In this document: in pieces, positions 5,521 to 58,637 of the stretch
Position numbering within the stretch: position 1 is the stretch's first letter
How the letters are laid out: each line of letters starts with the position of its first letter
Position numbers and translations under genes: made by a program
Notes under the pieces: generated by a model
Seen by the model: the letters and a program-made list of their open reading frames with translations, nothing else
Databases searched by the model: none
What the model was told of the DNA's origin: nothing
NCBI GenBank assembly: GCA_951406725.2
Contig: OX597820.1
Span: forward strand, 96,720,001 to 96,784,000
DNA from: Octopus vulgaris
Taxonomy: Eukaryota
Direction: 5' to 3'
Length of the DNA stretch: 64,000 bases

Positions 5521-6119
5521 CTATTTCTTTACTACCCACAAGGGGCTAAGCACAGATGGGACAAGCAAGGACAGACATAGGTATTAAGTCGATTACATCG
5601 ACCCCAGTGCGTAACTGGTACTTAATTTATCGACCCCGAAAGGATGAAAGGCAAAGTTAACCTCGGCGGAATTTGAACTCAGAACGTAACAGCAGACGAA
5701 ATACCTATTTCTTTATTACCCACAAGGGGATAAACATAGAGGGGACAAACAAGGACAGACATAGGTATTAAGTCGATTACATCGACCCCAGTGCGTAACT
5801 GGTACTTAATTTATCGACCCCGAAAGGATGAAAGGCAAAGTTAACCTCGGCGGAATTTGAACTCAGAACGTAACGGCAGACGAAATACCTATTTCTTTAT
5901 TACCCACAAGGGCTAAACATAGAGGGGACAAACAAGGACAGACATAGGTATTAAGTCGATTACATCGACCCCAGTGCGTAACTGGTACTTAATTTATCGA
6001 CCCCGAAAGGATGAAAGGCAAAGTTAACCTCGGCGGAATTTGAACTCAGAACGTAACGGCAGACGAAATACCACTAAGCATTTCGCCCGGCGTGCTATCG
6101 TTTCTGCCAGCTCGCCGCC
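5521..6119 (-). mobile_element. SINE family S1 trimer (one head plus 3 x 183-184 bp)
   Basis: Unit boundaries at 5521, 5705 and 5889. Head GGCGGCGAGCTGGCAGAA at 6119. TSD GTGACATTAATAG at 5508-5520 and 6122-6134. Confidence 0.9.
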
Positions 6120-11221: not shown

Positions 11222-11440
11222 CGGCGGCTAGCTTGGCAGAATCATTAACTCGTTAGGCAAAATATTAAGCGGCATTTCATCAGTCTTTAAGCTCTGAGTA
11301 CAAATTCCGCTGAAGCCAACTTAGTCTTTCATCTTTTCGGGGTCGATAAAATAAGTACCAGCTGACCACTGGGATTGATGCAATCGACTAACCCCCTCCC
11401 CCGAAATTGCTGGCCTTGTACCAAAACTTCAAACCAATGT
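11222..11440 (+). mobile_element. Diverged S1-type SINE
   Basis: Degenerate head and TTTCATCTTTTCGGGGTCGATAAAATAAGTACCAG core. Confidence 0.7.
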
Positions 11441-12427: not shown

Positions 12428-12833
12428 GGCGGCGAGCTGGCAGAAACGTTAGCACGCCGGGCGAAATGCGTAGCCGTATTTCGTCTGCCGTTACGTTGTG
12501 AGTTCAAATTCCGCCGAGGTCGACTTTGCCTTTGCCTTTGCATCCTTTCGGGGGTCGATAAATTAAGTACCAGTTACGCACTGGGGTCGATGTATTCGAC
12601 TTAATACCTATGTCTGTCCTTGTTTGTTCCCTCTATGTTTAGCCCCTTGTGGGTAATAAAGAAACAGGCATTTCGTCTGCCGTCACGTTCTGAGTTCAAA
12701 TTCCGCTGAGGTCGACTTTGCCTTTGCAGCCTTTTGGGGCTACGCACTGGGGCCGATGCAATCGACTTAATCCCATTGTCTGTCCTTGTTTGTTCCCTCT
12801 ATGTTCAACCCCCTGTGGGCAATAAAGAAATAG
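12428..12833 (+). mobile_element. SINE family S1 dimer
   Basis: Head, B box GAGTTCAAATTCC, core and tail, then a second headless unit from about 12668 with an internal deletion. Confidence 0.85.
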
Positions 12834-14265: not shown

Positions 14266-14414
14266 ACACCTTTATGAAAATTTAATATTTGTTTAACTTA
14301 GAGGGCGACTAGACCCATTTTCGAAAAATTAGGAAACTAGATTAGTTTTGGAACCAAAGGAAAATCGATGTTATCCGTATATTTTACTGGAATGTTGTAC
14401 AACAACAACTAAAG

Positions 14415-15570
14415 GGCGGCGAGCTGGCTGAATCGTTAGCACGCCGGGCGAAATGCTTAGCAGTATTTCGTCTGCCGCTACTTTCTGAGTTCAAATTCCG
14501 CCGCGGTCGACTTTGCCTTTCATCCTTTCGGGGTCGATTAAATAAGTACCAGTTACGCACTGGGGTCAATATAATCGACTTAATCCGTTTGTCTGTCCTT
14601 GTTTGTCCTCTCTGTGTTTAGCCCCTTGTGGGTAGTAAAGAAATAGGTATTTCATATGTCTTTACGTTCAGAGTTCAAATTCCGCCGTGGTCGACTTTGC
14701 CTTTCATCCTTTCGGGGTCGATTAAATAAGTACCAGTTATGCACTGGGTTCGATATAATCGACTTAATCCGTTTGTCTGTCCTTGTTTGTCCTCTCTGTG
14801 TTTAGCCCTTTGTGGGTAGTAAAGACATAGGTATTTCGTCTGCCGTTACGTTCTGAGTTCAAATTCCGCCGTGGTCGACTTTGCCTTTCATCCTTTCGGG
14901 GTCGATTAAATAAGTACCAGTTACGCACTGGGGTCAATATAATCGACTTAATCCGTTTGTCTGTCCTTGTTTGTCCTCTCTGTGTTTAGCCCCTTGTGGG
15001 TAGTAAAGAAATAGGTATTTCATATGTCTTTACGTTCAGAGTTCAAATTCCGCCGAGGTCGACTTTGCCTTTCATCCTTTCGGGGTCGATTAAATAAGTA
15101 CCAGTTATGCACTGGGTTCGATATAATCGACTTAATCCGTTTGTCTGTCCTTGTTTGTCCTCTCTGTGTTTAGCCCTTTGTGGGTAGTAAAGACATAGGT
15201 ATTTCGTCTGCCGTTACGTTCTGAGTTCAAATTCCGCCGAGGTCGACTTTGCCTTTCATCCTTTCGGGGTCGATTAAATAAGTACCAGTTACGCACTGGG
15301 GTCAATATAATCGACTTAATCCGTTTGTCTGTCCTTGTTTGTCCTCTCTGTGTTTAGCCCCTTGTGGGTAGTAAAGAAATAGGTATTTCATTTGTCTTTA
15401 CGTTCAGAGTTCAAATTCCGCCGAGGTCGACTTTGCCTTTCATCCTTTCGGAGTCGATTAAATAAGTACCAGTTATGCACTGGGGTCGATATAATCGACT
15501 TAATCCGTTTGTCTGTCGTTGTTTGTCCTCTCTGTGTTTAGCCCCTTGTGGGTAGTAAAGAAATAGGTAT
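14415..15570 (+). mobile_element. SINE family S1 hexamer (one head plus 6 x 184 bp)
   Basis: GTAT(TTC) unit starts at 14463, 14647, 14831, 15015, 15199, 15383 and 15567. TSD AACAA(C/T)TAAAGG at 14404 and 15571. Confidence 0.95.
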
Positions 15571-17459
15571 AACAATTAAAGGCTTTTAAAATTGCGTTGC
15601 AGATACAAAATATGTGAATGGATTTCATCTCGAAGAATATGTACTAAAGAATGTAGGACCTGAAACCGCTCAGTTGTTTAAACAAGAAAAACAATCTACT
15701 AATGTAATTAGCAGTATGTCTCCGTCTCCCTGTTTGTCCGTCTCTGTGGTATAAACAATACAGGTAATAAACTACTAAGGTAATTTTACTATGTCTCAAT
15801 TTCCGGAAACACTGGTAAGCTAAGCTATTATAACTTCAGGGTATGTATTTCGTTGAAACCCTATCAAGTCATTTGACTAAGAAATGTACATAAGTTGAAC
15901 TGTTAACATATTATCATTTGTATGTAGTTACACATACAAACATGTAAGTGTGTGTGTGCATTCAGCTATAATAAAAACATTTTTACAATAATCTGATACG
16001 TATAAGTCTTATACTTTTGTAGAGTACAAATTTATTATCCTCAAACAAGAATATTATTGATAGTGACTTCAAAGTTTCGGTTAGTTAAGCCATCGTCGCT
16101 CTGACGAGTCTACCAACTTATAAAAAGGATTAAATAACTGAAGGATTCCTTTCGAAACAACTTCACTTTAGGTCTTAGATAAAGGATGCTATTTCATTTT
16201 CGGATATGACAGTAATCAAATTAGAATGTTTTTGATATCAGATCAACTTGGATATTGTTTTTAATGTTCAACTGTTTTCTGTACTTTGCTCTCAAATTCA
16301 CAAGTGTAGAAATTACTTATTCGCAAGAGTAGCTTGTTGAAAAAGGCATTTATATTTTTGTCTTTTTCTCAAATACAACAGTGAAAACGCTTCCAGTTTT
16401 CAGAGACCTTCCATATTTTGAAATTCTGTGAGTACTTTATCCTTGGATCGAAGTTTATGAAGTATCCGCACTGATCCTTAGGATTTTCAAGCACATCGTC
16501 AATTTTATAGTTATAAGGATTCGCAGCTCGACCAAAAAGTATGTAAATTAAGGTCTAGAATGTAATAAGAGAACCGCTGCCTGAGTCTGAACTTGTAACT
16601 GACTCCTAGCTGTTACCAAGACTGATTTCCTCACAATATCCTAAAATCATTGCTAGATTTGGAATAGTAACTGTTTTGTTTCAATTTACTTTCTAGTTTA
16701 AGTACAGAAAAGCTTTAGCTCAAATGTTGATATATTTATCTGTGCTAAAACGACATTGATGTTTTATCCATTATAATTCCTTGTTAAATGAAATTACATG
16801 CTCAAAAGATATCACACTTAACACAGAAATGAGTCAACCAAATGAAGTTTCTGAATTAATCTGCAAGGACATGTTTTTGTTGCAACTGATTTTTAAAAAA
16901 TTTCAATTGTAAGAGCTCAAACACTATTGAGGATTTCTCCATATGATGTCATAAAGAGGCATGAGAATAAAGTTTACTTCATCTCCACATAAATTACGAA
17001 ACAGCTGTGTATATAATGGACAGCGATAATTTTCAGTACATTATTAGCTTAGATTCCATTTGCTTTACCACCAATCATTGGTGATGAATAATATGAGCTT
17101 AGGTTCTACTTTTTGCCTGATCCATGCAATCATTGGTGGATGGAGCGCCGTCAACAGATAATTCAATGCAATCTATTCATTTCAAATCAACGTATGACGT
17201 TTGGAAATATGAATTAACTTTTGCATCGGTCAAAATGCCATTCGGTATTTCTTAAACCTCTTTAAGTTCTGAGTTCAAATTTCGCCAAGGTCAACTTTAC
17301 TTTTCCTCCCTCACAGTACCAGTCAAATATTGAAGTCGATGATATCGACTAACTTCCTCGCTTCAAAATTGCTGACCTTACTCCAAATTAGAAGAATATG
17401 AATTACTTCAAAGTTTGGGTTCTGATTTTTTTTTTGTTACCAGAGCAGGAGTGGCTATA

Positions 17460-27167: not shown

Positions 27168-27686
27168 TTCTGATCTTAACTGATTGGAAGTGTTATCATG
27201 TACATTGTTTTGTCTTGGTATAAAAGATGGGCTACAGCAAATATTCTGCTCCATACCACAGATTTGCTTGTCAGTTGTTTGACCTTAACCAGTTGAGCAT
27301 GTCCCTTAGTGGCTGACGATATGTGCATCTCTGATCACGAGCAGAAGTAGTGGGGGAGCATCATAGCCATATGTTGAGAGGGATTCTTTGGGGTTTGAAT
27401 AGTTCACCTCTGGAAACATGGGTGGTTCTTTCAACATCCTTAAACAACCCTTATTCAGGGACCGTTTGAGCGGGATTGGCTACTCAACCTGAAGAAAATT
27501 CTAACTGGGCCCCACCTGCAAGGTCATGTGCTGTTTATCTTGATATGAGATCACCATGTCGCGCACATATGGTTGTGATGCATGTGCCTGGTGTACCTTT
27601 ATCAGACGGGTAGTCATGATGGGTATATTGGGCTTCGTATATTTTACCCCAGTGTCACTTTGATGGCATGAACTGCTCTCTCACTC
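27167..27686 (+). mobile_element. 520-bp non-coding insertion within (TAA)n, probably a Dong-type 3'UTR or Dong-mobilised element
   Basis: Bounded on both sides by (TAA)n; no ORF. Strand is inferred from the neighbours. Confidence 0.55.
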
Positions 27687-27765
<79 letters not shown>

Positions 27766-27768
27766 TTG

Positions 27769-27829
<61 letters not shown>

Positions 27830-27830
<1 letters not shown>

Positions 27831-30690
27831 CCTCAACCTCACAAACCTCAACCACCTATACTATGCATCCGCGAAAATCTCAACGATCCTATGTGGTGTA
27901 AAGATTAGAAAACGGCAACAGTCCCACAAAAAGCCTTCTTGGCAAGAGCGTCTGCAACAACAAATTAAAATATTTAGATCTGACATTGAATATTTGAAAA
28001 ACCTTAAGGCTCACAAGATTACCAAACCTACAAAAACCCAAAAATTACTGAAAAAATACAATATGAAAACTATACTTGATATTGATGCCACCATAGAAAC
28101 CATCAAACAAAAGGTATCTGCCAAAGCTGCCCGCATAGCGAGGTATGAAAAGCGTGTTAGATTTTTCAAGGACAACAACATGTTCAAAAATAACACCAAG
28201 AATTTTTACAGGAAGATAGGAAAAACAGCGTTTACTGCAGGGTCTGTACCATCAAAAGAAGAAGTGCAGAGATTTTGGAATAAAATCTGGGCAGAAGAAA
28301 AAACACACAACGAAAAGGCCCCCTGGATTGACAGAATATCTACAGAACTGGACCCCTTAGAAGAGCAAAAGTGGGAGGGTGTCAAGGTAGAAGATATAAG
28401 ATCTGCTCTCAGGAGGTCAAGCAAATGGAAGTCTCCAGGAAAGGATAAAATTCCTAACTTCTGGCTGAATGCCTTCCCAGAGAGCCATGAACTGCTAACA
28501 GAACTGTACAATGATGTTTTGCAACACCCTAGTAGGATGCCTCCTTGGCTAGTTAATGGGTTAACATTCCTGCTTCCAAAAAGTGAAGAAACAAATGAAC
28601 CAAAAAACTATAGACCCATAACCTGCTTAACAACTATGTACAAAACACTAACATCTGTCCTGACGGAATATACCTATAGTTTTTTAACAGACAGCAGCAT
28701 ATTCCCTAATGAACAGAAAGGATGTAAACGTGGATCCTACGGCTGTAAAGACCAACTACTCATCAATAAGATGATCTTAGAAGATTGTCACAAACGACAC
28801 AAAAACTTATCAATAGCCTGGATAGACTATAAAAAGGCTTTTGATAGCCTACCACATAGCTGGATTAGGAAATGCCTTGAAATGTATAAGATAGCACCAA
28901 CTCTGCGAAACTTCTTGACTGTAAGTATGAGATCATGGAGAACCACACTAACTCTGAACAGTGACAGTGAATCCCTAAATGCTGGTGATGTAAAAATTTC
29001 GTGTGGCATTTTCCAGGGTGACTCACTGTCACCACTCCTCTTTTGTTTATCCTTAATACCTCTCTCAAAGCTGCTCAATGACGCGCAGTACGGGTATAAA
29101 ATGTTTGATAAAAATATAAATCATCTCGTTTACATGGATGATTTAAAGCTTTTTGCAAAAAATGATCAACAACTCAAGGGCTTACTAGCGATAGTCAAAC
29201 AATTCAGTGACGACATCAGAATGCAATTCGGCCTCGATAAATGTGCAAAGGCTACCTTTATCAAAGGAAAAATGACAGAAACATCTAACGTTAACCTTGA
29301 CCAACAGAATGTCATAAAAGAACTAGACCCAGCGGAGAGCTACAAGTACCTAGGGATAATTGAAGGGAACGGAATAAGGCATTCAGAGATGAAGGAAAGG
29401 ATCAGGAGAGAATGCTATCGAAGAGTGAGAGCAATACTCAAGACAGAGCTGAATGCAAGAAACAGGATCGAAGCAATCAATGCATTAGCTATACCAGTCG
29501 TGACTTACAGTTTCAATATTGTTAACTGGTCAATTACTGAAATATGTCAGCTCGACAGAAAAATAAGGAAACTGTTGACAATGCATAGAATGCACCACCC
29601 TAAGGCAGATACAGAACGACTATATCTGCCAAGAAAAGAGGGAGGCCGTGGTCTTTTGCAACTGGCAATAACAATGAAGATTGCTACAATTGGCCTAGAC
29701 ACCTACCTGAAAAACTCTGAGGACTGGATGCTAAAACTTGTCTCAAAACATGAAAACAAGAAAGCATCATACTCAGTCACAAAACAGGCAAAGGAATATC
29801 TAAGTGAACTCCGAATACAACCAATTTCGGAATTAGAGATAGATATACAAGAAACAAGCACAGAAAAAGCTAGGCGCATGAAAACCCGTGCCAAAACTGC
29901 GGCCTTAGATATTCTGAATAATAAATGGCAAGAAAAACCTCTCTATGGCAAATACCCAAAGAGAGCGAATAATGCAGATATCGACAAAGCCCTGACCCAT
30001 CAATGGCTAATGGCCTCTGGCTTAAAATCTGAAACAGAGGGGTTTATCATAGCAGCTCAAGATCAATGCCTACCAACAAGAAACTACCAGGCCAACATAT
30101 TAAAGATCAGAAGCAGTCCAACGTGTCGTGTATGCAAGCAACAAAATGAAACCATTGACCATGTGGTCTCCAAGTGCAGTCTTCTAGCGCCTACAGAGTA
30201 TCTCAACAGGCACGATAGAGCTGCACAATATATTCACTGGGTAATCTGTAAAAACCTGGATTTGCCCCATGAAAAAAACTGGTGGGAACACAAACCACCC
30301 CCAGTGCTTGAAAATGACCACATCTCACTCCTCTGGAACTTCACCATTCAAACTGACAGGAAGATAGATGCAAATAGGCCAGACATCATATTGAAAAACT
30401 TCAAACAAAGAACATGCCTCCTCATTGATATGACTGTCCCAATCGATATAAACGTATCTGTCAAGACCTACCAAAAACTGAGCAAATATAAAGATCTTGA
30501 AATAGAAATCAGCAAAATGTGGAAGCTGAAGACTAAAACAATACCTGTTGTCATAGGTGCCCTGGGAATGATAGCAAAAGGGGCTGATAGCTACCTAACT
30601 CAGATACCAGGAAACCCAAAAATGGCAGAAGTTCAAAAGATAGTGCTCATGGGAACTGCTCATATCCTACGCAAAATACTCTCTATGTAA
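27830..30690 (+). CDS. R4/Dong-clade non-LTR retrotransposon ORF (reverse transcriptase, CCHC, restriction-like endonuclease), 5'-truncated
   Basis: Uninterrupted frame with KSPGKD, NYRPITCL, WIDYKKAFDS, GIFQGDSLSP, YMDD (29131), YKYLG, CRVC..HVVSKC, RHD, RPDII, LIDMTVP, KLSKY. The poly-Ile N-terminus is (TAA)n read-through. 3'UTR runs to about 30911. Confidence 0.96.
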
Positions 30691-43865: not shown

Positions 43866-44375
43866 GGATCTTTACTCTTTGACTGACAGATTTAAAAAAT
43901 AATTTTTTGTAACTAAACACTTTCAAACTTCGGATATTGGTAGAATGTGTCATATAAAACATCTTTTACTCTTAGCATTTTTGAGAAAAACTTATATTTA
44001 CAAAGTTATTTCACGTTAAAGTTGTCCTATTTCGGTAATTTCAACCAATCAATGACATGTATTCAGCTGAATAAAATTACTACTGTTATTTGTCAACAAG
44101 AACTTTCGGCGGTGTATATTTCGTTTGTCACTATGACAACCCTAACCCTAACCCTAAAACGTTAACCCTAACCTTAACCATAAAACCTTAAAGCTAAAAC
44201 CAGTACAAACGATGTTATAAATAACAGAGACAAACGAAAAATACACCGCCAATAGTTGTTATTGACAAACAACGGCAGTAATTTTGTTCAGCTGAATACA
44301 CGCCATTGAAATTACCGAAATAGGACAACTTTAACGTGAAATAACTTCGTAAAAGTAAGTTTTTCTAAAAAATGC
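43866..44375. mobile_element. Fold-back MITE related to the Merlin-like family
   Basis: GGATCTTT start. Long internal inverted arms (about 43975-44130 and 44225-44375) around (TAACCC)n. Confidence 0.65.
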
Positions 44376-51699: not shown

Positions 51700-53750
51700 C
51701 CTCGGAAGTTAGAAAATCCACGGAACTTCCCAGGAAGTTTTCGACCAAATTACCCGGGGGTTAGACAATCCACGGAAGTTTCCAGGAAGATTTCGACCAA
51801 ATTTCCTGGAAGTTAGAAAATCCTTGGAACTTTCCACAAAGTTTCCTACCAAAGTTTCCGAAAGTTAGAAAATCCTCGGAACTTCCCAGGAAGTGTTCGA
51901 CCAAATTTCCCGGAAGTTAGAAAATCATCCAAACTTTCAGTAAGTTTTCGGCCAAATCCTGAAGTTAGAAAATCCTGGGAACTTCCGAGGAATTCTTCGA
52001 CCAAATTTCCAGGAAGTCAGAAAATCCTCGGAACTTTCCAGGAAGTTTTCTACCTAATTTCCCGGAAGTTATGGTTATCCGGAAGTTAGAAAATCCAGGG
52101 AACTTCCCTTGCAGGTTTCGACCAAATTTGCCGGAAGTAAGAAAATCATCGTAACTTCCCAGGCAGTTTTCGACCAAATTTTCAGGAAGATAGAAAATCC
52201 TCGGAACTTCCCAGGAAGTTTTCGTAGAAATTTCCCGGAAGTTACAAAGTCCTCAGAACTTCCCAGGAAGTTTTCGGCCAAATTTACCATAAGTTTTAAA
52301 ATCTTCGCAAATTTGCAGGAAGTTTTCGACCAAATTTCCCGAAATTCAGAAAATCCTCAGAACTTTCAAGGAAGTTTTCGACCAAATTTCCCGGATGTTA
52401 GAAATTCCTCGGAAATACCAGCAAGTTTTCGACCAAATTTCCCGGAAGTTAGAACATCCTCAATACTTTCCAGGAAGTTTTCGAACAAATTTCCCGTGAG
52501 TTAGAAAATCCTCAGAAATTCCCAGAAAGATTTCAACCAAATTTCCCGTAAGTTAGAAACTCGTCTGAACTATGCAGGAACTTTTCGAAAAATTATCCGG
52601 ATGTTAGAAAATACTCGGAACGTCCCAGGAAGTTATCTACCAAAGTTCATAGGAGTTAGAAAATCCTCGGAACATTCCAGGAAGTTTTCGACCAAATTCC
52701 CCGGAAGTTAGAAAATCCCTGGAAGTTTTCGACCAAATTTCCCGAAAGTGTAGAAAATCCACGGAACTTTCCAGGAAGTTTTCGACCAAATTTCCCGGAT
52801 GTTAGAACATCCTTGCAACTTTCCTGGAAGTTTTCGACCAAATTTCTCGGGAGTTCGGTAATCCCAGGAACTTACCAAAACGTTTTCGACATGATTTTCT
52901 AGAAGTTGGGAAATCCCCATAATATTCCAGAATGTTTTCGACCAAACTTTCAACCAAACTTTCCGGAAACTGGAAAATCCTCGGAACTTTCCAGGAAAAT
53001 TTCGACTAAACTTACCGGAAGTTGGGAAATCGTCAGAACTTTCCAGGAAGTTTTCCACAAAGCTTCCCGGAAGTTGGGAAATCATCGGAACTTTCCATGA
53101 AGTTTACCACCACATTTTCCGGAAATTAGAAAATCCTCGGAACTTTCCAGGAAGTTTTCGACCAAATTACTCGGAAGTTAGAAAACACTCGGAACTCTCC
53201 AGGAAGTTTTCGACCACATTACACGAAAGTTTCGACCAACTTTGAAAATCCCCGGATTTCGACCAAATTTTCCGGAAGTTGGGAAGTGCCCGGAACTTTC
53301 CAGGAGATTTTCGACCAAATTTTCCGGTGGTTGGAATCCCCAGAACATTCATTGAAGTTTTCTACAAAACTTTCTATCAAACTTCCCGGAAGTTGGGAAT
53401 TCCCAGGAACTTTCCAGGAAGTTTTCGACTAAATTTTCCGGAGGTTGGGAAATCTCCGGAACTTCCCATGAAGTTTTAGTCTAAATTTCCCGGAATTTGG
53501 AAAATTCCATGAACATTTCGACCAAGCTTCGCGGAAATTCGGAAACCCCCGATACTTTCCAGGAAGTTTTCGACCAAACTTACCGAAAGTTGGAACATCC
53601 CCCGGAACTTTCCAGGACGTTTTCGACCAAATTTTCCGGGAGTTAAGTAATCCTCGGAACTTTCCAGGAAGTTTTCAACCAAATTTTCCAGAAGTTCGGT
53701 AATCCCAAGAACTTTCAAGGACGTTTTCGACATGATTTTCCGGATTTTTA
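51700..53750. repeat. Minisatellite of about 52-bp period, roughly 39 diverged copies
   Basis: Consensus GGAAGTTAGAAAATCCTCGGAACTTTCCAGGAAGTTTTCGACCAAATTTCCC. Confidence 0.95.
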
Positions 53751-54129: not shown

Positions 54130-54931
54130 AAGAATTCGCTTGAATTATGCACGGGGCTGCGATACGGACAGAGAATGCGGCTTTCCGCCCGTTGAAACGA
54201 AAGTGTCGGGGATAGAGTTTGCGATCACACCCACAAAGACCTCTATCCGGGAAAATCTCCGCAAATGGTAGGTTTACATGTCCGTTGAAGATGTTGAAAG
54301 TCGGATGAGATCTCCCTGCATCCTCCGTCGTTTGAGTGAAGGCAATGCCAGCTGTCGGAGATGTTCCTCTTATGCAAGCTTAGACAAGCCCGCGCCCATT
54401 TGGGTGGCCAAGTGCTGAACCTGTTCCAGGTACTGAATGTCTTTCTGGAGATATGGGTTTGCGGTATGGATGTAATATTCGAGAATGGGTCGAACTAGAG
54501 TGATATATACAGGCCAAAAGACGTCCATTGAAAGGTTAGCAAAGGATCGGTGGATGAGGAAAAGATTCCTTCTGGCTTTGTTCGTTGCCTCGATACCCTG
54601 CCGTGGTAGTTTGAAAGTAGTATCGATCATTATGCTGAGACCCTTTTCTCCAGTGACCATCTTAAGATGTTGATGTTTGTGGCCAATAGTCAAGAGAGAG
54701 TTTGGAGGTGAACCTATTGGCAAATGGCTGCATTTTGAGGCGTTCAAGTTCAGATTCCATTCTTCCGCCCAATTCCAAGCTCGGTTCAGCGACAATTGGA
54801 GTATGTCATATTGATTCCTAGGTGAGACAAGTTTGACGTCGTCTGCAAATAGGAGAACTCTTCCATCAAGAAAATCTGGCAGGTCGTTGATAAAGAGAAG
54901 GAAAAGGATTGGCCCCCAGCATCGACCCCTG
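54130..54931 (-). mobile_element. CR1-clade LINE RT and 3' fragment
   Basis: QGSMLG..LFLLFINDLP...LFADDVKL, YITLVRPILEY, LEQVQ. Confidence 0.9.
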
Positions 54932-54949
54932 TATACATGTATGTATGTA

Positions 54950-55380
54950 TCTCTTATCTTTTAGTCGTTTTACTCATTACACTGCGGCCATTCTGGGGCA
55001 CAACCTTGACGATTTTACTCGAACAAATTGACTCCAGTACCTATTGTTTTCTTTTTGCTTTTGTTTTTTGTTCTTTGTTTTTTTGAAAGTTTGGTACTTA
55101 TTCTTTCGGTCTCAGTTTGCCGAACCTTAACATTACGGAGACATAAACGAACTAACAACGCAGGGAGAACAAACACAATCACTAAGACACTCACACATAG
55201 ATATATGCGCGCGCACACACATACACACACGACAGGCTTCTTTCAGTTTATCATCTTTACTCATAAGATTAAGTCTGCCCGAAGCTATAGTAAAAGTCAC
55301 TTGCCCTAGCTGCCCTGCAGTGGGACTGAACCGAGAAGCATGAGGTTGGGAAACAAACTTCTTACGACACAACCACGCTT
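54950..55380 (-). mobile_element. Diverged S2 SINE
   Basis: Reverse-complement S2 tail, body and head. Confidence 0.7.
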
Positions 55381-56491: not shown

Positions 56492-57019
56492 TGTGTGTGT
56501 TTCGTTATTATTATTTACTGAGTTTTAGCACGCTGGGCGAAATACTTTGCGGTATTTCGCCCGTCTTCACTTTCTGAGTTCAAAATCCCCCGAGGTCGGC
56601 TCTGCCTTTCATTTTATCGGGGTCGATAACTTAAGTACCAGTGAAACACTGGGGTTGATGTAATCAACTAGACCCCTCCCACAAAATTTCAGGCCTTGTA
56701 CCTTTTGCAGAAAGGATTATTGTTGTTTATCGCTCTATTTTTGTTACCCTGTAGCATACATCCTCTCTCTCTCTCTCTCTCTGAGAGTTATAATACAAGT
56801 GCTGACGTGGCGGATGTCAGATGGCTTTTGGCCCCTTGGGCCCAGTTGTGCCCGCTGCTCTGATTGGTTGGTTTTGGTGCAGTTTAACTCTTGTTTTATT
56901 TCGCGCTAATGTGCAAACCAAACAATCGCAGCCTTCTGATAAGGTCCCGTGACACAGTCTTCGAGGTTCTCTTCTGGAGCCCACTAATCTCTTTAAAAGC
57001 TAGATCAACAAACCGTAAT

Positions 57020-58340
57020 TCGGCCTTTTAGCAGATATCTATCGCAACTGGCAACAGGACAGGAGAATTCCTAATTCTGCGAGGCAAGGAGTGGTGGTAC
57101 TGCTGAAAAAGGACCCACACAAAGAGGATCAAATAGAAAATTTTAGGCCCATAACGCTGTTGAACACAATTTTCAAAGTTTTTGTGAAAATGTTAGCAAA
57201 GAGGTTTACGCTTTTCGATGAGGAACTGATTAGTGATGCACAAACATGCGCAATTCCAAGTAGATCCATTCGTGACAACCCTCAACATCATAGACAGAGT
57301 GGGAAAGGAACCTGGCATGAGTGGGCCCTGAACAATTTGGATCAGTCAAAAGCTTTGAATAGAGTCGACCACCAATACTTGGCGGCTATTCTCACGGCGG
57401 CCGGTTTCGGTCCCGTTTTCTGTGGTTGGATCGCTGCAATGTACGGCAACATCTGCTCGGTAGAATGGTTACCCATCGGACCCTTTCAGCATCATGCTCT
57501 CAGTCCATCAAGGGGTTCCCCTCTCGTCTTTTCTGTATGTACTGGCTCTAAACCACTACTGAGGAACTAGGACGTAGAACCGTGTCGACGTACGCAGACG
57601 ATGTCACCGTCGTCATAGTGTCGAACGGCAGGCACATTGACCTGGTTGGCACTGCACTAAAAGAATACGAGGCGGCAACGTCGTTGGATGCTGGACGGCG
57701 AGACCGGTTAAATTGCTCGAGATCTGGTTTGATCCGGATCTCCTGATGAAGAACTGAGACGAGGTGACGAGCATGTCGCCTAATATCATCCAGAAATGAG
57801 AGAAAGCTATCTCTGAAAGGTCGGGCAGAGGTGGAGAAGCATACACTGCCTGACGATTGTGCCTTGCTCGACTTTACGTCTGATCAAACTGGAGCTCGTT
57901 CGCTATCTGTGGAAGGGACGCATCCACTGGTCATGAGATCCAATTGTTGTCAACATCCACTGAATGAAGGGTTGAGAATGTCGTGGCTGCTGATGCACAG
58001 ACATGCACTAAGGCTGCGACATTTTCAGTGCTTCGTTGACAGTGAACTCGTCTCTGAGTTGCAGTATTCGATCAAACGTAGATCGAGGGAAGGCGCCAGT
58101 ACCTGGAGTTTCGTCAGACACTTACAGTTTTCTGTCAGTCGTGCAATACAGTAGGTGGAAGTTCCACTTTGGTATTCCACAGAGGGTTAATGGCGGGTAA
58201 GTACGACGACGTTTTCGGTGAGACACTGGGCGTCGACGAGAATGAACTGGCTGGGCTGTTTTGGCGGACTTTTGGGCCTTGCAGAAATCCTTGGCCTCGA
58301 AGTGCTACCGGGAGGCATTGCTGGCTTGGGATAAACACAA
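57020..58340 (+). mobile_element. L1/Tx1-clade ORF2 remnant
   Basis: VVLLKKDP...NFRPITLLN..FK, LDQSKALNRVDH, YADDVT, MHRHALRLRH. Many deletions. Confidence 0.88.
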
Positions 58341-58341
58341 A

Positions 58342-58637
58342 GGATAAAGGGCAAAGTCGACCTCGGCGGAATTTGAACTCAAAAACGTAAAGACAGACAA
58401 AATACCTATTTCTTTACTACCCACAAGGGGCTAAACACAAAGGGGACAAACAAGGACAAACAAACGGATTAAGTCGATTATATCGACCCCAGTGCGTAAC
58501 TGGTACTTAATTTATCGACCCCGAAAGGATGAAAGGCAAAGTCGACCTCGGCGGAATTTGAACTCAGAACGTAACGGCAGACGAAATATCGCTACCCATT
58601 TCGCCCGGCGTGCTAACGATTCTGCCAGCTCGCCGCC
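58342..58637 (-). mobile_element. SINE family S1, one unit plus a partial second unit
   Basis: Head at 58637, A-type unit, then the start of a B-type unit (GTCTTTACG). Confidence 0.85.

What the first reader, a model, noticed from the sequence alone, without database searches (positions are those of the whole stretch)
14404..15582. SINE concatemer: 6 x 184 bp with ABABAB higher-order structure inside one TSD
Seen: one A-box head, then six exact 184-bp units. Odd units carry GTCTGCCG/TTACGCAC/GGTCAAT; even units carry GTCTTTACGTTCAGAG/TTATGCAC. One 12-bp TSD brackets the whole array. The same junction (tail AAATAG|GTATTTC re-entering 48 nt into the SINE) recurs in the trimer at 5521-6119 (own TSD), the dimer at 12428 and the A-then-B copy at 58342. 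Multimerisation is therefore a family property. Inference: RT template jumping at GTAT microhomology, rolling-circle copying of a circular 184/368-nt RNA, or multimeric source loci. It may also show a satellite being born from a SINE.
Basis: partly seen in the sequence, partly recalled or inferred. Interest (0 to 1): 0.7.

Follow-up and report, generated by a model that had tools for sequence, protein, structure and literature searches.

The report
Self-inserting SINE grown into ABABAB array
A short jumping repeat sits here as one head plus six alternating A/B bodies; its family inserts at one exact spot inside its own older copies, likely steered by its RNA tail, and this array likely reached six units by later DNA duplication, a route from scattered repeats to satellite DNA.

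Summary
Confirmed: 48-nt head plus six units of exactly 184 bp. A/B alternation is real (neighbours differ at 9-13 sites, next-but-one at 1-6). The TSD matches 11 of 12. The junction is family-wide: 26,764 exact 24-mer matches; 31 of 42 tail junctions in 930 kb of unselected DNA re-enter at 48-52.

Rolling circle and same-template RT jumps are not supported as the general route. Dimer units are almost as different as copies from different loci (9.6% vs 10.6%), and no ribozyme was found. In 18 of 26 loci picked for a doubled head, a full copy sits inside an older one with a TSD starting at the junction base. Last units are older (51 of 60). Tail variant predicts site (16 or 48).

Near-identical units appear mainly in long arrays (2 of 52 with two X units, 9 of 11 with six or more). 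Here u2 and u4 share four alleles absent from u6, so the last step was likely a 368-bp DNA duplication.

Against: seamless arrays carry the insert's head. RNA guidance is inferred; unit number was not read-verified. The scan already noted self-insertion on other DNA of this genome.

The parts
14404..14415 (+). left copy of outer target-site duplication (overlaps first G of head)
   Evidence: 11 of 12 match to right copy
14415..14462 (+). single 48-nt tRNA-like head; A-box-like motif at 14425-14435 (box label from recalled consensus)
   Evidence: ARAGORN finds no tRNA gene
14463..14646 (+). unit 1 (A); B-box-like GTTCAAATTCC at 14489-14499; its differences from u3/u5 all lie in its first 42 nt
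14647..14830 (+). unit 2 (B); 1 difference from u4
14831..15014 (+). unit 3 (A); 1 difference from u5
15015..15198 (+). unit 4 (B); shares 58A, 151T, 211T, 228C with u2 only
15199..15382 (+). unit 5 (A)
15383..15566 (+). unit 6 (B in its 5' part; lacks the four u2/u4 alleles; private 58T, 118A, 184G); its last ~45 nt resemble the 3' end of an L1/Tx1-type LINE
15567..15570 (+). tail run-on GTAT, the same letters as the head site at element positions 49-52
15571..15582 (+). right copy of outer TSD; first T4 run (possible Pol III stop) follows at 15584
5521..6119 (-). trimer of same family, same junction, 14-bp exact TSD; u1 and u2 differ at 1 site
12428..12833 (+). dimer; second unit has the older tail type, is more diverged and has a deletion
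58339..58637 (-). head + unit + partial second unit (49-114)

Best explanation
This is a tRNA-type SINE array whose fixed junction arises when a young copy inserts at position 48 of an older copy of its own or a sister family, likely guided by its RNA running on into the same GGTATTTC sequence, and whose ABABAB order likely came from later local DNA duplication of a 368-bp unit pair. Steps: (1) Shown: no T4 stop in the unit, and tails run on into GGTAT(TTC). Inferred: Pol III transcripts read through the junction. (2) Shown for 18 of 26 doubled-head loci: insertion in place with a 9-24 bp TSD starting at G48. Inferred for the seamless majority. (3) Inferred: the 5' end is usually resolved by the cDNA head pairing with the host head, as proposed for R2, so one mostly insert-type head remains. 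(4) Shown at family level: near-identical units accumulate with array length. Inferred here: at least the last step, four to six units, was DNA duplication or unequal exchange. How the first ABAB arose is not resolved. (5) Inferred: the enzyme is an L1/Tx1-type LINE sharing the tail.
For: Nested copies: 47 exact places genome-wide; 18 of 26 distinct loci have host head + full insert + host body, and 7 of 18 TSDs share letters that differ from the A-type unit on both sides. Among loci chosen only for an old-type host letter, 5 of 29 are nested vs 1 of 121 arrays in the other junction-selected and unselected sets (p=0.001). Age polarity: the sister-family (Y) last unit is more diverged than the first in 51 of 60 arrays (9.1% vs 3.8%); CpG decay 59/216 vs 32/216 (p=0.002). 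Outer TSD mismatch: 17/265 in X..Y arrays, like Y monomers (21/360) and above X monomers (5/238, p=0.027). No shared lineage among 73 Y last units. Tail variant predicts site: older tail 1,335 at site 16 vs 480 at site 48; younger tail 138 at site 16 vs up to 26,764 at site 48 (patterns not length-matched). Pairs within 3 differences: 2 of 52 arrays with two X units, 2 of 15 with three, 8 of 16 with 4-5, 9 of 11 with 6 or more; background 12 of 18,721. Hexamer: u2/u4 share four alleles absent from u6; u1/u3/u5 are identical over positions 91-232.
Against: Heads of seamless X..Y arrays are mostly insert-type: divergence 7.3-8.1% vs 5.9% (X monomers) and 12-17% (Y monomers). Head divergence tracks the first unit (rho 0.28, p=0.03), not the last (0.12, n.s.), so the model needs head replacement. 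Visibly nested copies are rare among unselected junctions. In X-X dimers the last unit is not significantly older (10 vs 7 of 18, p=0.24), and the two units share slightly more alleles than chance (p about 0.03). 4 of 51 X..X arrays share 2 or more rare alleles between first and last unit (permutation mean 0.3), including a second ABABAB, L144. TSD calls near Y tails are noisy (ATT repeats). No LINE aimed at this site was found: 0 of 39 3' ends of the tail-sharing LINE land there.
Confidence: 0.65

Rival explanations
1. RT template jump between different RNAs: RT starts on one SINE RNA, stops at position 49 and jumps to the GGTAT end of a young RNA, writing the multimer in one insertion.
Against: Cannot make host head + TSD + full insert + host body (18 of 26). 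Predicts young outer TSDs, but X..Y TSDs are as worn as those of Y monomers. Last units show about 1.8 times the CpG decay.
Confidence: 0.14
2. Whole multimers are transcribed from multimeric source loci and pasted as a block; the junction is inherited.
For: No T4 in the unit; single copies carry 9-16+ nt of the next unit after the tail (L021, L064, L189); a nested insert's own head would transcribe exactly head-X-host, giving insert-type heads.
Against: No shared lineage among 73 Y last units (2,628 pairs), which needs many hundreds of sources; outer TSD age. The first dimer still needs self-insertion. Probably a contributing route rather than the main one.
Confidence: 0.13
3. Rolling-circle or repeated copying of one 184- or 368-nt RNA, or re-insertion of the locus's own dimer transcript, made the array at once.
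For: Both ABABAB hexamers start with A and end with B; L144 looks star-like, with A and B private alleles in all copies. The first ABAB here is unexplained.
Against: Only 1 of 18 X-X dimers has near-identical units. No Rfam match at E<=10; no hammerhead core on either strand. u2/u4 share alleles absent from u6. In L144, u3 and u5 carry a 5' B letter (71T), as expected from a crossover inside the unit. A lag-2 pattern was seen in only 2 of 16 arrays not selected for period.
Confidence: 0.06
4. Assembly artefact.
For: No read or contig spanning the array was seen.
Against: Units carry distinct, ordered alleles; tail-to-49 joints stand in contigs of other runs, including another species label (table 5c).
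Confidence: 0.02

Closest known systems
SINEU-3 / Tx1-Mar of crocodilians (PMC4494074; abstract and section 14 read)
   Same: A SINE with strong preference for one site inside another transposon, sequential tandem insertions, Tx1-type partner inferred.
   Different: There the target is a Mariner element and tandem copies sandwich a TSD. Here the target is the SINE's own head, most joins are seamless, and no LINE with the same target was found.
TSD1-(SINE)n-TSD1 arrays of Scapharca broughtonii (PMC11481361; passages read)
   Same: One complete head, repeated head-truncated bodies, one outer TSD; 4-15 units.
   Different: About 3% of SINEs there, with internal units also 3'-truncated and ascribed to unequal recombination between TSDs. 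Here about half of X elements are multimeric (28 of 52) with full tails, and nested intermediates show insertion.
SINE-derived satellites (sSat) of squamates (PMC10702118; abstract and Discussion read); limpet PcH-sat from a Nin-SINE (PMC11121367; passages read)
   Same: Tandem units from part of a SINE with a longer terminal unit; homogeneity rises with length; alternating di/trimeric patterns noted in Arizona elegans; ~180-bp units.
   Different: Their origin is left to unequal recombination or unspecified. Here one junction is re-made at about 10^5 places (extrapolated) by insertion.
R2 5' junctions (PMC3774820; passages read); SART1Bm/R1Bm priming (PMC7265360; passages read)
   Same: Upstream target homology on the RNA gives mostly precise 5' joins, with a minority of duplicated-target joins; target-like letters at the RNA 3' end improve accurate priming.
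   Different: Those are autonomous elements with site-specific enzymes in rDNA or telomeres. Here a non-autonomous SINE is its own target.
TE dimers by double insertion (McGurk and Barbash, 10.1101/158386; abstract and section 8 read)
   Same: Insertion preference makes dimers, which expand into arrays.
   Different: Their tail-to-internal junctions are dispersed (5' truncation); here they concentrate at two sites set by the tail variant.

Membership tests
tRNA-derived SINE | tRNA-like head with A and B boxes | tested here: inconclusive
   Box-like motifs seen by eye against recalled consensus; ARAGORN 0 genes; Rfam 0 matches.
tRNA-derived SINE | short, non-coding, dispersed at high copy with variable TSDs | tested here: met
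   232 nt; 52 X elements in 930 kb; TSD called in 15 of 30 monomers.
tRNA-derived SINE | 3' tail shared with a LINE | tested here: met
   Last ~47 nt align to the 3' end of a LINE with EN, RT and zf-RVT domains (score 56 vs shuffle max 49 of 500). Related, not identical.
tRNA-derived SINE | Pol III transcription | not testable with these tools
   No RNA run was laid.
octopus OR1/OR2 or Nin/Deu/CORE-domain SINE | match to the published consensus or domain | not tested
   Resemblance is recalled only; no reference sequence came from any call.
retrozyme (ribozyme-bearing tandem retroelement; recalled) | hammerhead or other self-cleaving ribozyme in the unit | tested here: not met
   fold z = -1.56.
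retrozyme (ribozyme-bearing tandem retroelement; recalled) | units of one insertion copied from one circle | tested here: not met
   Dimer units 9.6% apart.
SINE-derived satellite (sSat) | tandem SINE parts with a longer terminal unit; homogeneity rising with length | tested here: met
   22-unit array with mean neighbour distance 1.6.
SINE-derived satellite (sSat) | subtelomeric or heterochromatic location | not tested
   Not counted.
transposon-targeted SINE (SINEU type) | strong preference for one site in a transposon, shown by independent insertions | tested here: met
transposon-targeted SINE (SINEU type) | partner Tx1 LINE with the same target | tested here: inconclusive
   The one tail-sharing family examined lands in (TATC)n-like sequence (39 of 39 ends; 0 at the SINE site); 12 of 12 loci with a LINE-like tail word at site 48 were SINE copies. 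Sister LINE families were not surveyed.

The most novel reading that the evidence does not exclude
A self-homing SINE: with no terminator, its RNA carries a copy of its last landing site, pairs with that site in any relative, and so inherits and can switch its own target (site 16 in the older tail type, site 48 in the younger). This rebuilds one junction about 100,000 times and seeds higher-order satellite arrays genome-wide.
Probability: 0.4. Interest if true: 0.75.

Novelty: new variant of a known kind. Interest (0 to 1): 0.52.

Why it matters
How dispersed transposons become satellites is usually argued from finished arrays. Here every stage sits in one genome: nested insertion with TSD, seamless dimer, mixed short arrays, higher-order ABABAB, and 20-40-unit homogeneous arrays. 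If the RNA run-on sets the target, a non-coding element steers a borrowed LINE enzyme by base pairing and changes target by inheritance, which is testable by changing a few letters. The ABABAB order itself is likely ordinary DNA turnover. Practically, such arrays will be split into many false SINE families by automatic annotation (inference).

Tried and rejected
Ribozyme/retrozyme: Rfam 0 matches at E<=10, hammerhead core 0. Sibling loci sharing the B alleles: the one outside match is an unrelated Y copy. The B-A-B pattern search gave 15 places; it selects only a CpG change, and 1 of 10 complete arrays from it met the lag-2 rule. A trimer test for 5'-last/3'-first hybrids gave no clear pattern in 10 trimers. 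A host-to-insert gradient along the head: only one weak signal (19T in 13 of 22 old-host arrays vs 13 of 42 X monomers, p=0.036, one of several comparisons). LINE landing at site 48: not found. Reads: the two raw-read runs were sampled at about 3% and laid 2 and 23 reads. Contigs in X2 and X4 run from the tail into the right flank but have only 24 letters on the SINE side, under the tool's 31-letter rule, so presence of the insertion in other samples is only suggested. 14308-14403 was uncovered. Look-ups of earlier notes by sequence and for ABAB arrays returned nothing.

Full report
Observation. The array is as described: a 48-nt head (14415-14462), six units spaced exactly 184 bp, GTAT, and a TSD matching 11 of 12. 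Units are not identical: 15 variable columns, odd-even distance 9-13, odd-odd 1-3, even-even 1-7. Positions below are element positions (1 = first G of the head; 49 = unit start). The host is an animal genome of 2.8 Gb, likely an octopus. That label rests on a recalled resemblance to octopus SINEs and on earlier scan notes and was not tested.

The family. A 24-mer across the tail-to-49 junction occurs 26,764 times, its reversed control 0 times. In 93 unselected 10-kb stretches, 52 elements with this tail (X) lay away from stretch edges: 24 single and 28 multi-piece. Of 42 junctions after a complete tail, 31 re-enter at 48-52, 7 at 16-17 and 4 elsewhere; this extrapolates to roughly 90,000 site-48 junctions. 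A sister family (Y) shares positions 1-166 and has another tail; in mixed seamless arrays it was seen as the last unit. Joints from tail to position 49 also stand in contigs of other runs, so the junction is not an assembly product. The six-unit count itself was not verifiable.

Not one template. In 18 seamless X-X dimers the two units differ by 9.6%, against 10.6% between loci; 1 of 18 is near-identical. A slight excess of shared alleles (p about 0.03) remains. Rfam and a hammerhead scan found nothing. Rolling-circle or same-RNA re-copying therefore does not build the typical multimer.

Insertion in place. Earlier notes of this scan proposed self-insertion, which changed my reading, and I tested it. 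A pattern for head site followed by a second full head gives 47 places. Of the first 30 loci, 4 overlapped others and were dropped. Of 26, 18 show host head, full insert, then tail joined to host body, with a 9-24 bp duplication (one mismatch allowed) starting at G48; 7 of 18 share letters that differ from the A-type unit on both sides, some of them private deletions. The other 8 have doubled heads without a downstream junction. Among 29 loci selected only for an old-type host letter, 5 are nested, against 1 of 121 arrays in the other junction-selected and unselected sets. One more nested locus, L040, lies in the period-selected set and is outside that count. In X..Y arrays the last unit is more diverged than the first in 51 of 60, with CpG decay 59/216 vs 32/216 in the first 27. 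Called outer TSDs mismatch at 17/265, like Y monomers (21/360) and above X monomers (5/238); only 18 of 56 X..Y arrays had a callable TSD. No two of 73 Y last units share more than two rare substitutions, apart from overlapping deletions.

What sets the site. TSDs of free copies usually begin right after AAAGAAATA, often with G or GGT for the younger tail and A for the older. Genome-wide, the older tail joins site 16 1,335 times and site 48 480 times; the younger joins site 16 138 times and site 48 up to 26,764 times (patterns differ in length). The six-mer alone is not enough: 388 GGTATT sites lie outside SINEs and 85 inside, yet about 20 young tails continue into a SINE body and 3 into other GGTAT sequence (duplicated units inflate the 20). 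The unit has no T4 run, and some single copies carry 9-16 or more letters of the next unit. I infer that read-through RNA pairs with the host. An endonuclease preference is not excluded. Precedent: target-like 3' letters raise accurate priming in SART1Bm (PMC7265360, passages). The last ~47 nt of the tail resemble the 3' end of a young LINE with endonuclease, RT and zf-RVT domains. That family lands in (TATC)n-like sequence, so it is a relative of the partner at best.

Evidence against. In seamless X..Y arrays the head is mostly the insert's type, and its divergence tracks the first unit, not the last. In-place insertion must then replace the host head, as the cDNA-target heteroduplex model for R2 would allow (PMC3774820, passages). 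Template jumps between RNAs, or re-mobilised dimers, explain this more simply and keep about 0.14 and 0.13. In X-X dimers age polarity is not significant; over 39 X..X arrays it is weak (26 vs 13, p=0.025).

The ABABAB order. Near-identical pairs (3 or fewer differences) occur in 2 of 52 arrays with two X units, 2 of 15 with three, 8 of 16 with 4-5 and 9 of 11 with 6 or more, against 12 of 18,721 between-locus pairs. Long arrays grow by local duplication of founders that began different. Here u2 and u4 share 58A, 151T, 211T and 228C, absent from u6. u1, u3 and u5 are identical from 91 to 232, and u1's three differences lie in its first 42 nt. A one-step copy from a 368-nt template would give star-like decay and needs several reversions in u6, so at least the last step was likely a 368-bp DNA duplication. 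The 5' B word is private to this locus. The origin of the first ABAB is open: serial unequal exchange from two or three founders fits, and re-insertion of the locus's own dimer is not excluded. Position 90 reads C,T,T,A,A,A across u1-u6, which cuts across A/B and suggests conversion or exchange between alleles; it is unexplained. Alternation is uncommon but not unique: 2 of 16 arrays of 4 or more X units not selected for period, including a second ABABAB in unselected DNA (L144), where u3 and u5 carry one 5' B letter.

Comparison with what is known. It works like transposon-targeted SINEU-3 (PMC4494074, abstract and section 14) and double-insertion dimers (10.1101/158386, abstract and section 8). 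It looks like clam TSD-(SINE)n-TSD arrays (PMC11481361, passages) and squamate sSats (PMC10702118, abstract and Discussion). I found no paper on a SINE targeting its own head or on these arrays in nine searches. The repeat annotation PMC13282606 (first third read plus word search) does not mention them in its main text. PMC4758252, PMC5804259 and PMC11121367 were seen as passages. The original octopus SINE and Nin-domain papers were not read, no supplements were read, and subscription journals are not in the library, so absence from print is not established.

Verdict. Real; a new variant of a known kind; already noted by this scan at other loci. This locus adds a higher-order example, and the tests here favour self-insertion plus DNA duplication over rolling circle. 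Interest 0.52.

Noticed in passing
L242:3952-7344 (-) and L212-L241: Very young LINE (EN, RT, zf-RVT; 1130-aa frame). Over 100 places match a 200-aa piece at 100% identity; 39 of 39 3' ends run into (TATC)n-like sequence, often stacked. Shares its last ~47 nt with the SINE tail.
   Followed up: partly
L169:1461-2103; also L149, L154, L161, L173: Tandem copies of the SINE head alone (positions 1-62; eight in L169), apparently grown from head + TSD repeats at site 48.
   Followed up: no
L244:6188-10000 and L245:2-3316; L246:5399-9483: Arrays of about 40 and 22 units of the same 184-bp body; the 22-mer is nearly homogeneous.
   Followed up: partly
L144:7013-8141: Second ABABAB hexamer, in unselected DNA; every B unit has an 8-9 bp deletion.
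   Followed up: partly
L144:8638-9833; L128:6157-6764: Chains of older-tail copies joined at site 16 (217-bp step), a second self-target.
   Followed up: partly
window 27664-30690 (+): 1008-aa open frame with RT and weak zf-RVT, between (AAT)n runs; a 5'-truncated LINE in a microsatellite. Further RT fragments at 54370-54960 and 57019-57570.
   Followed up: partly
window 51703-53731: 52-bp minisatellite, about 39 copies, 70% matches.
   Followed up: no
window 44138-44201: Degenerate (AACCCT)n-like run, resembling an interstitial telomere repeat.
   Followed up: no
L193:1934-2070; L021:1224-1744: Inverted (palindromic) arrangements of SINE copies that include the junction.
   Followed up: no
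window 11223-11389, 56525-56669; many loci: Sister family Y shares head and core but has another tail and often stacks behind other Y copies at ATT-rich ends.
   Followed up: partly
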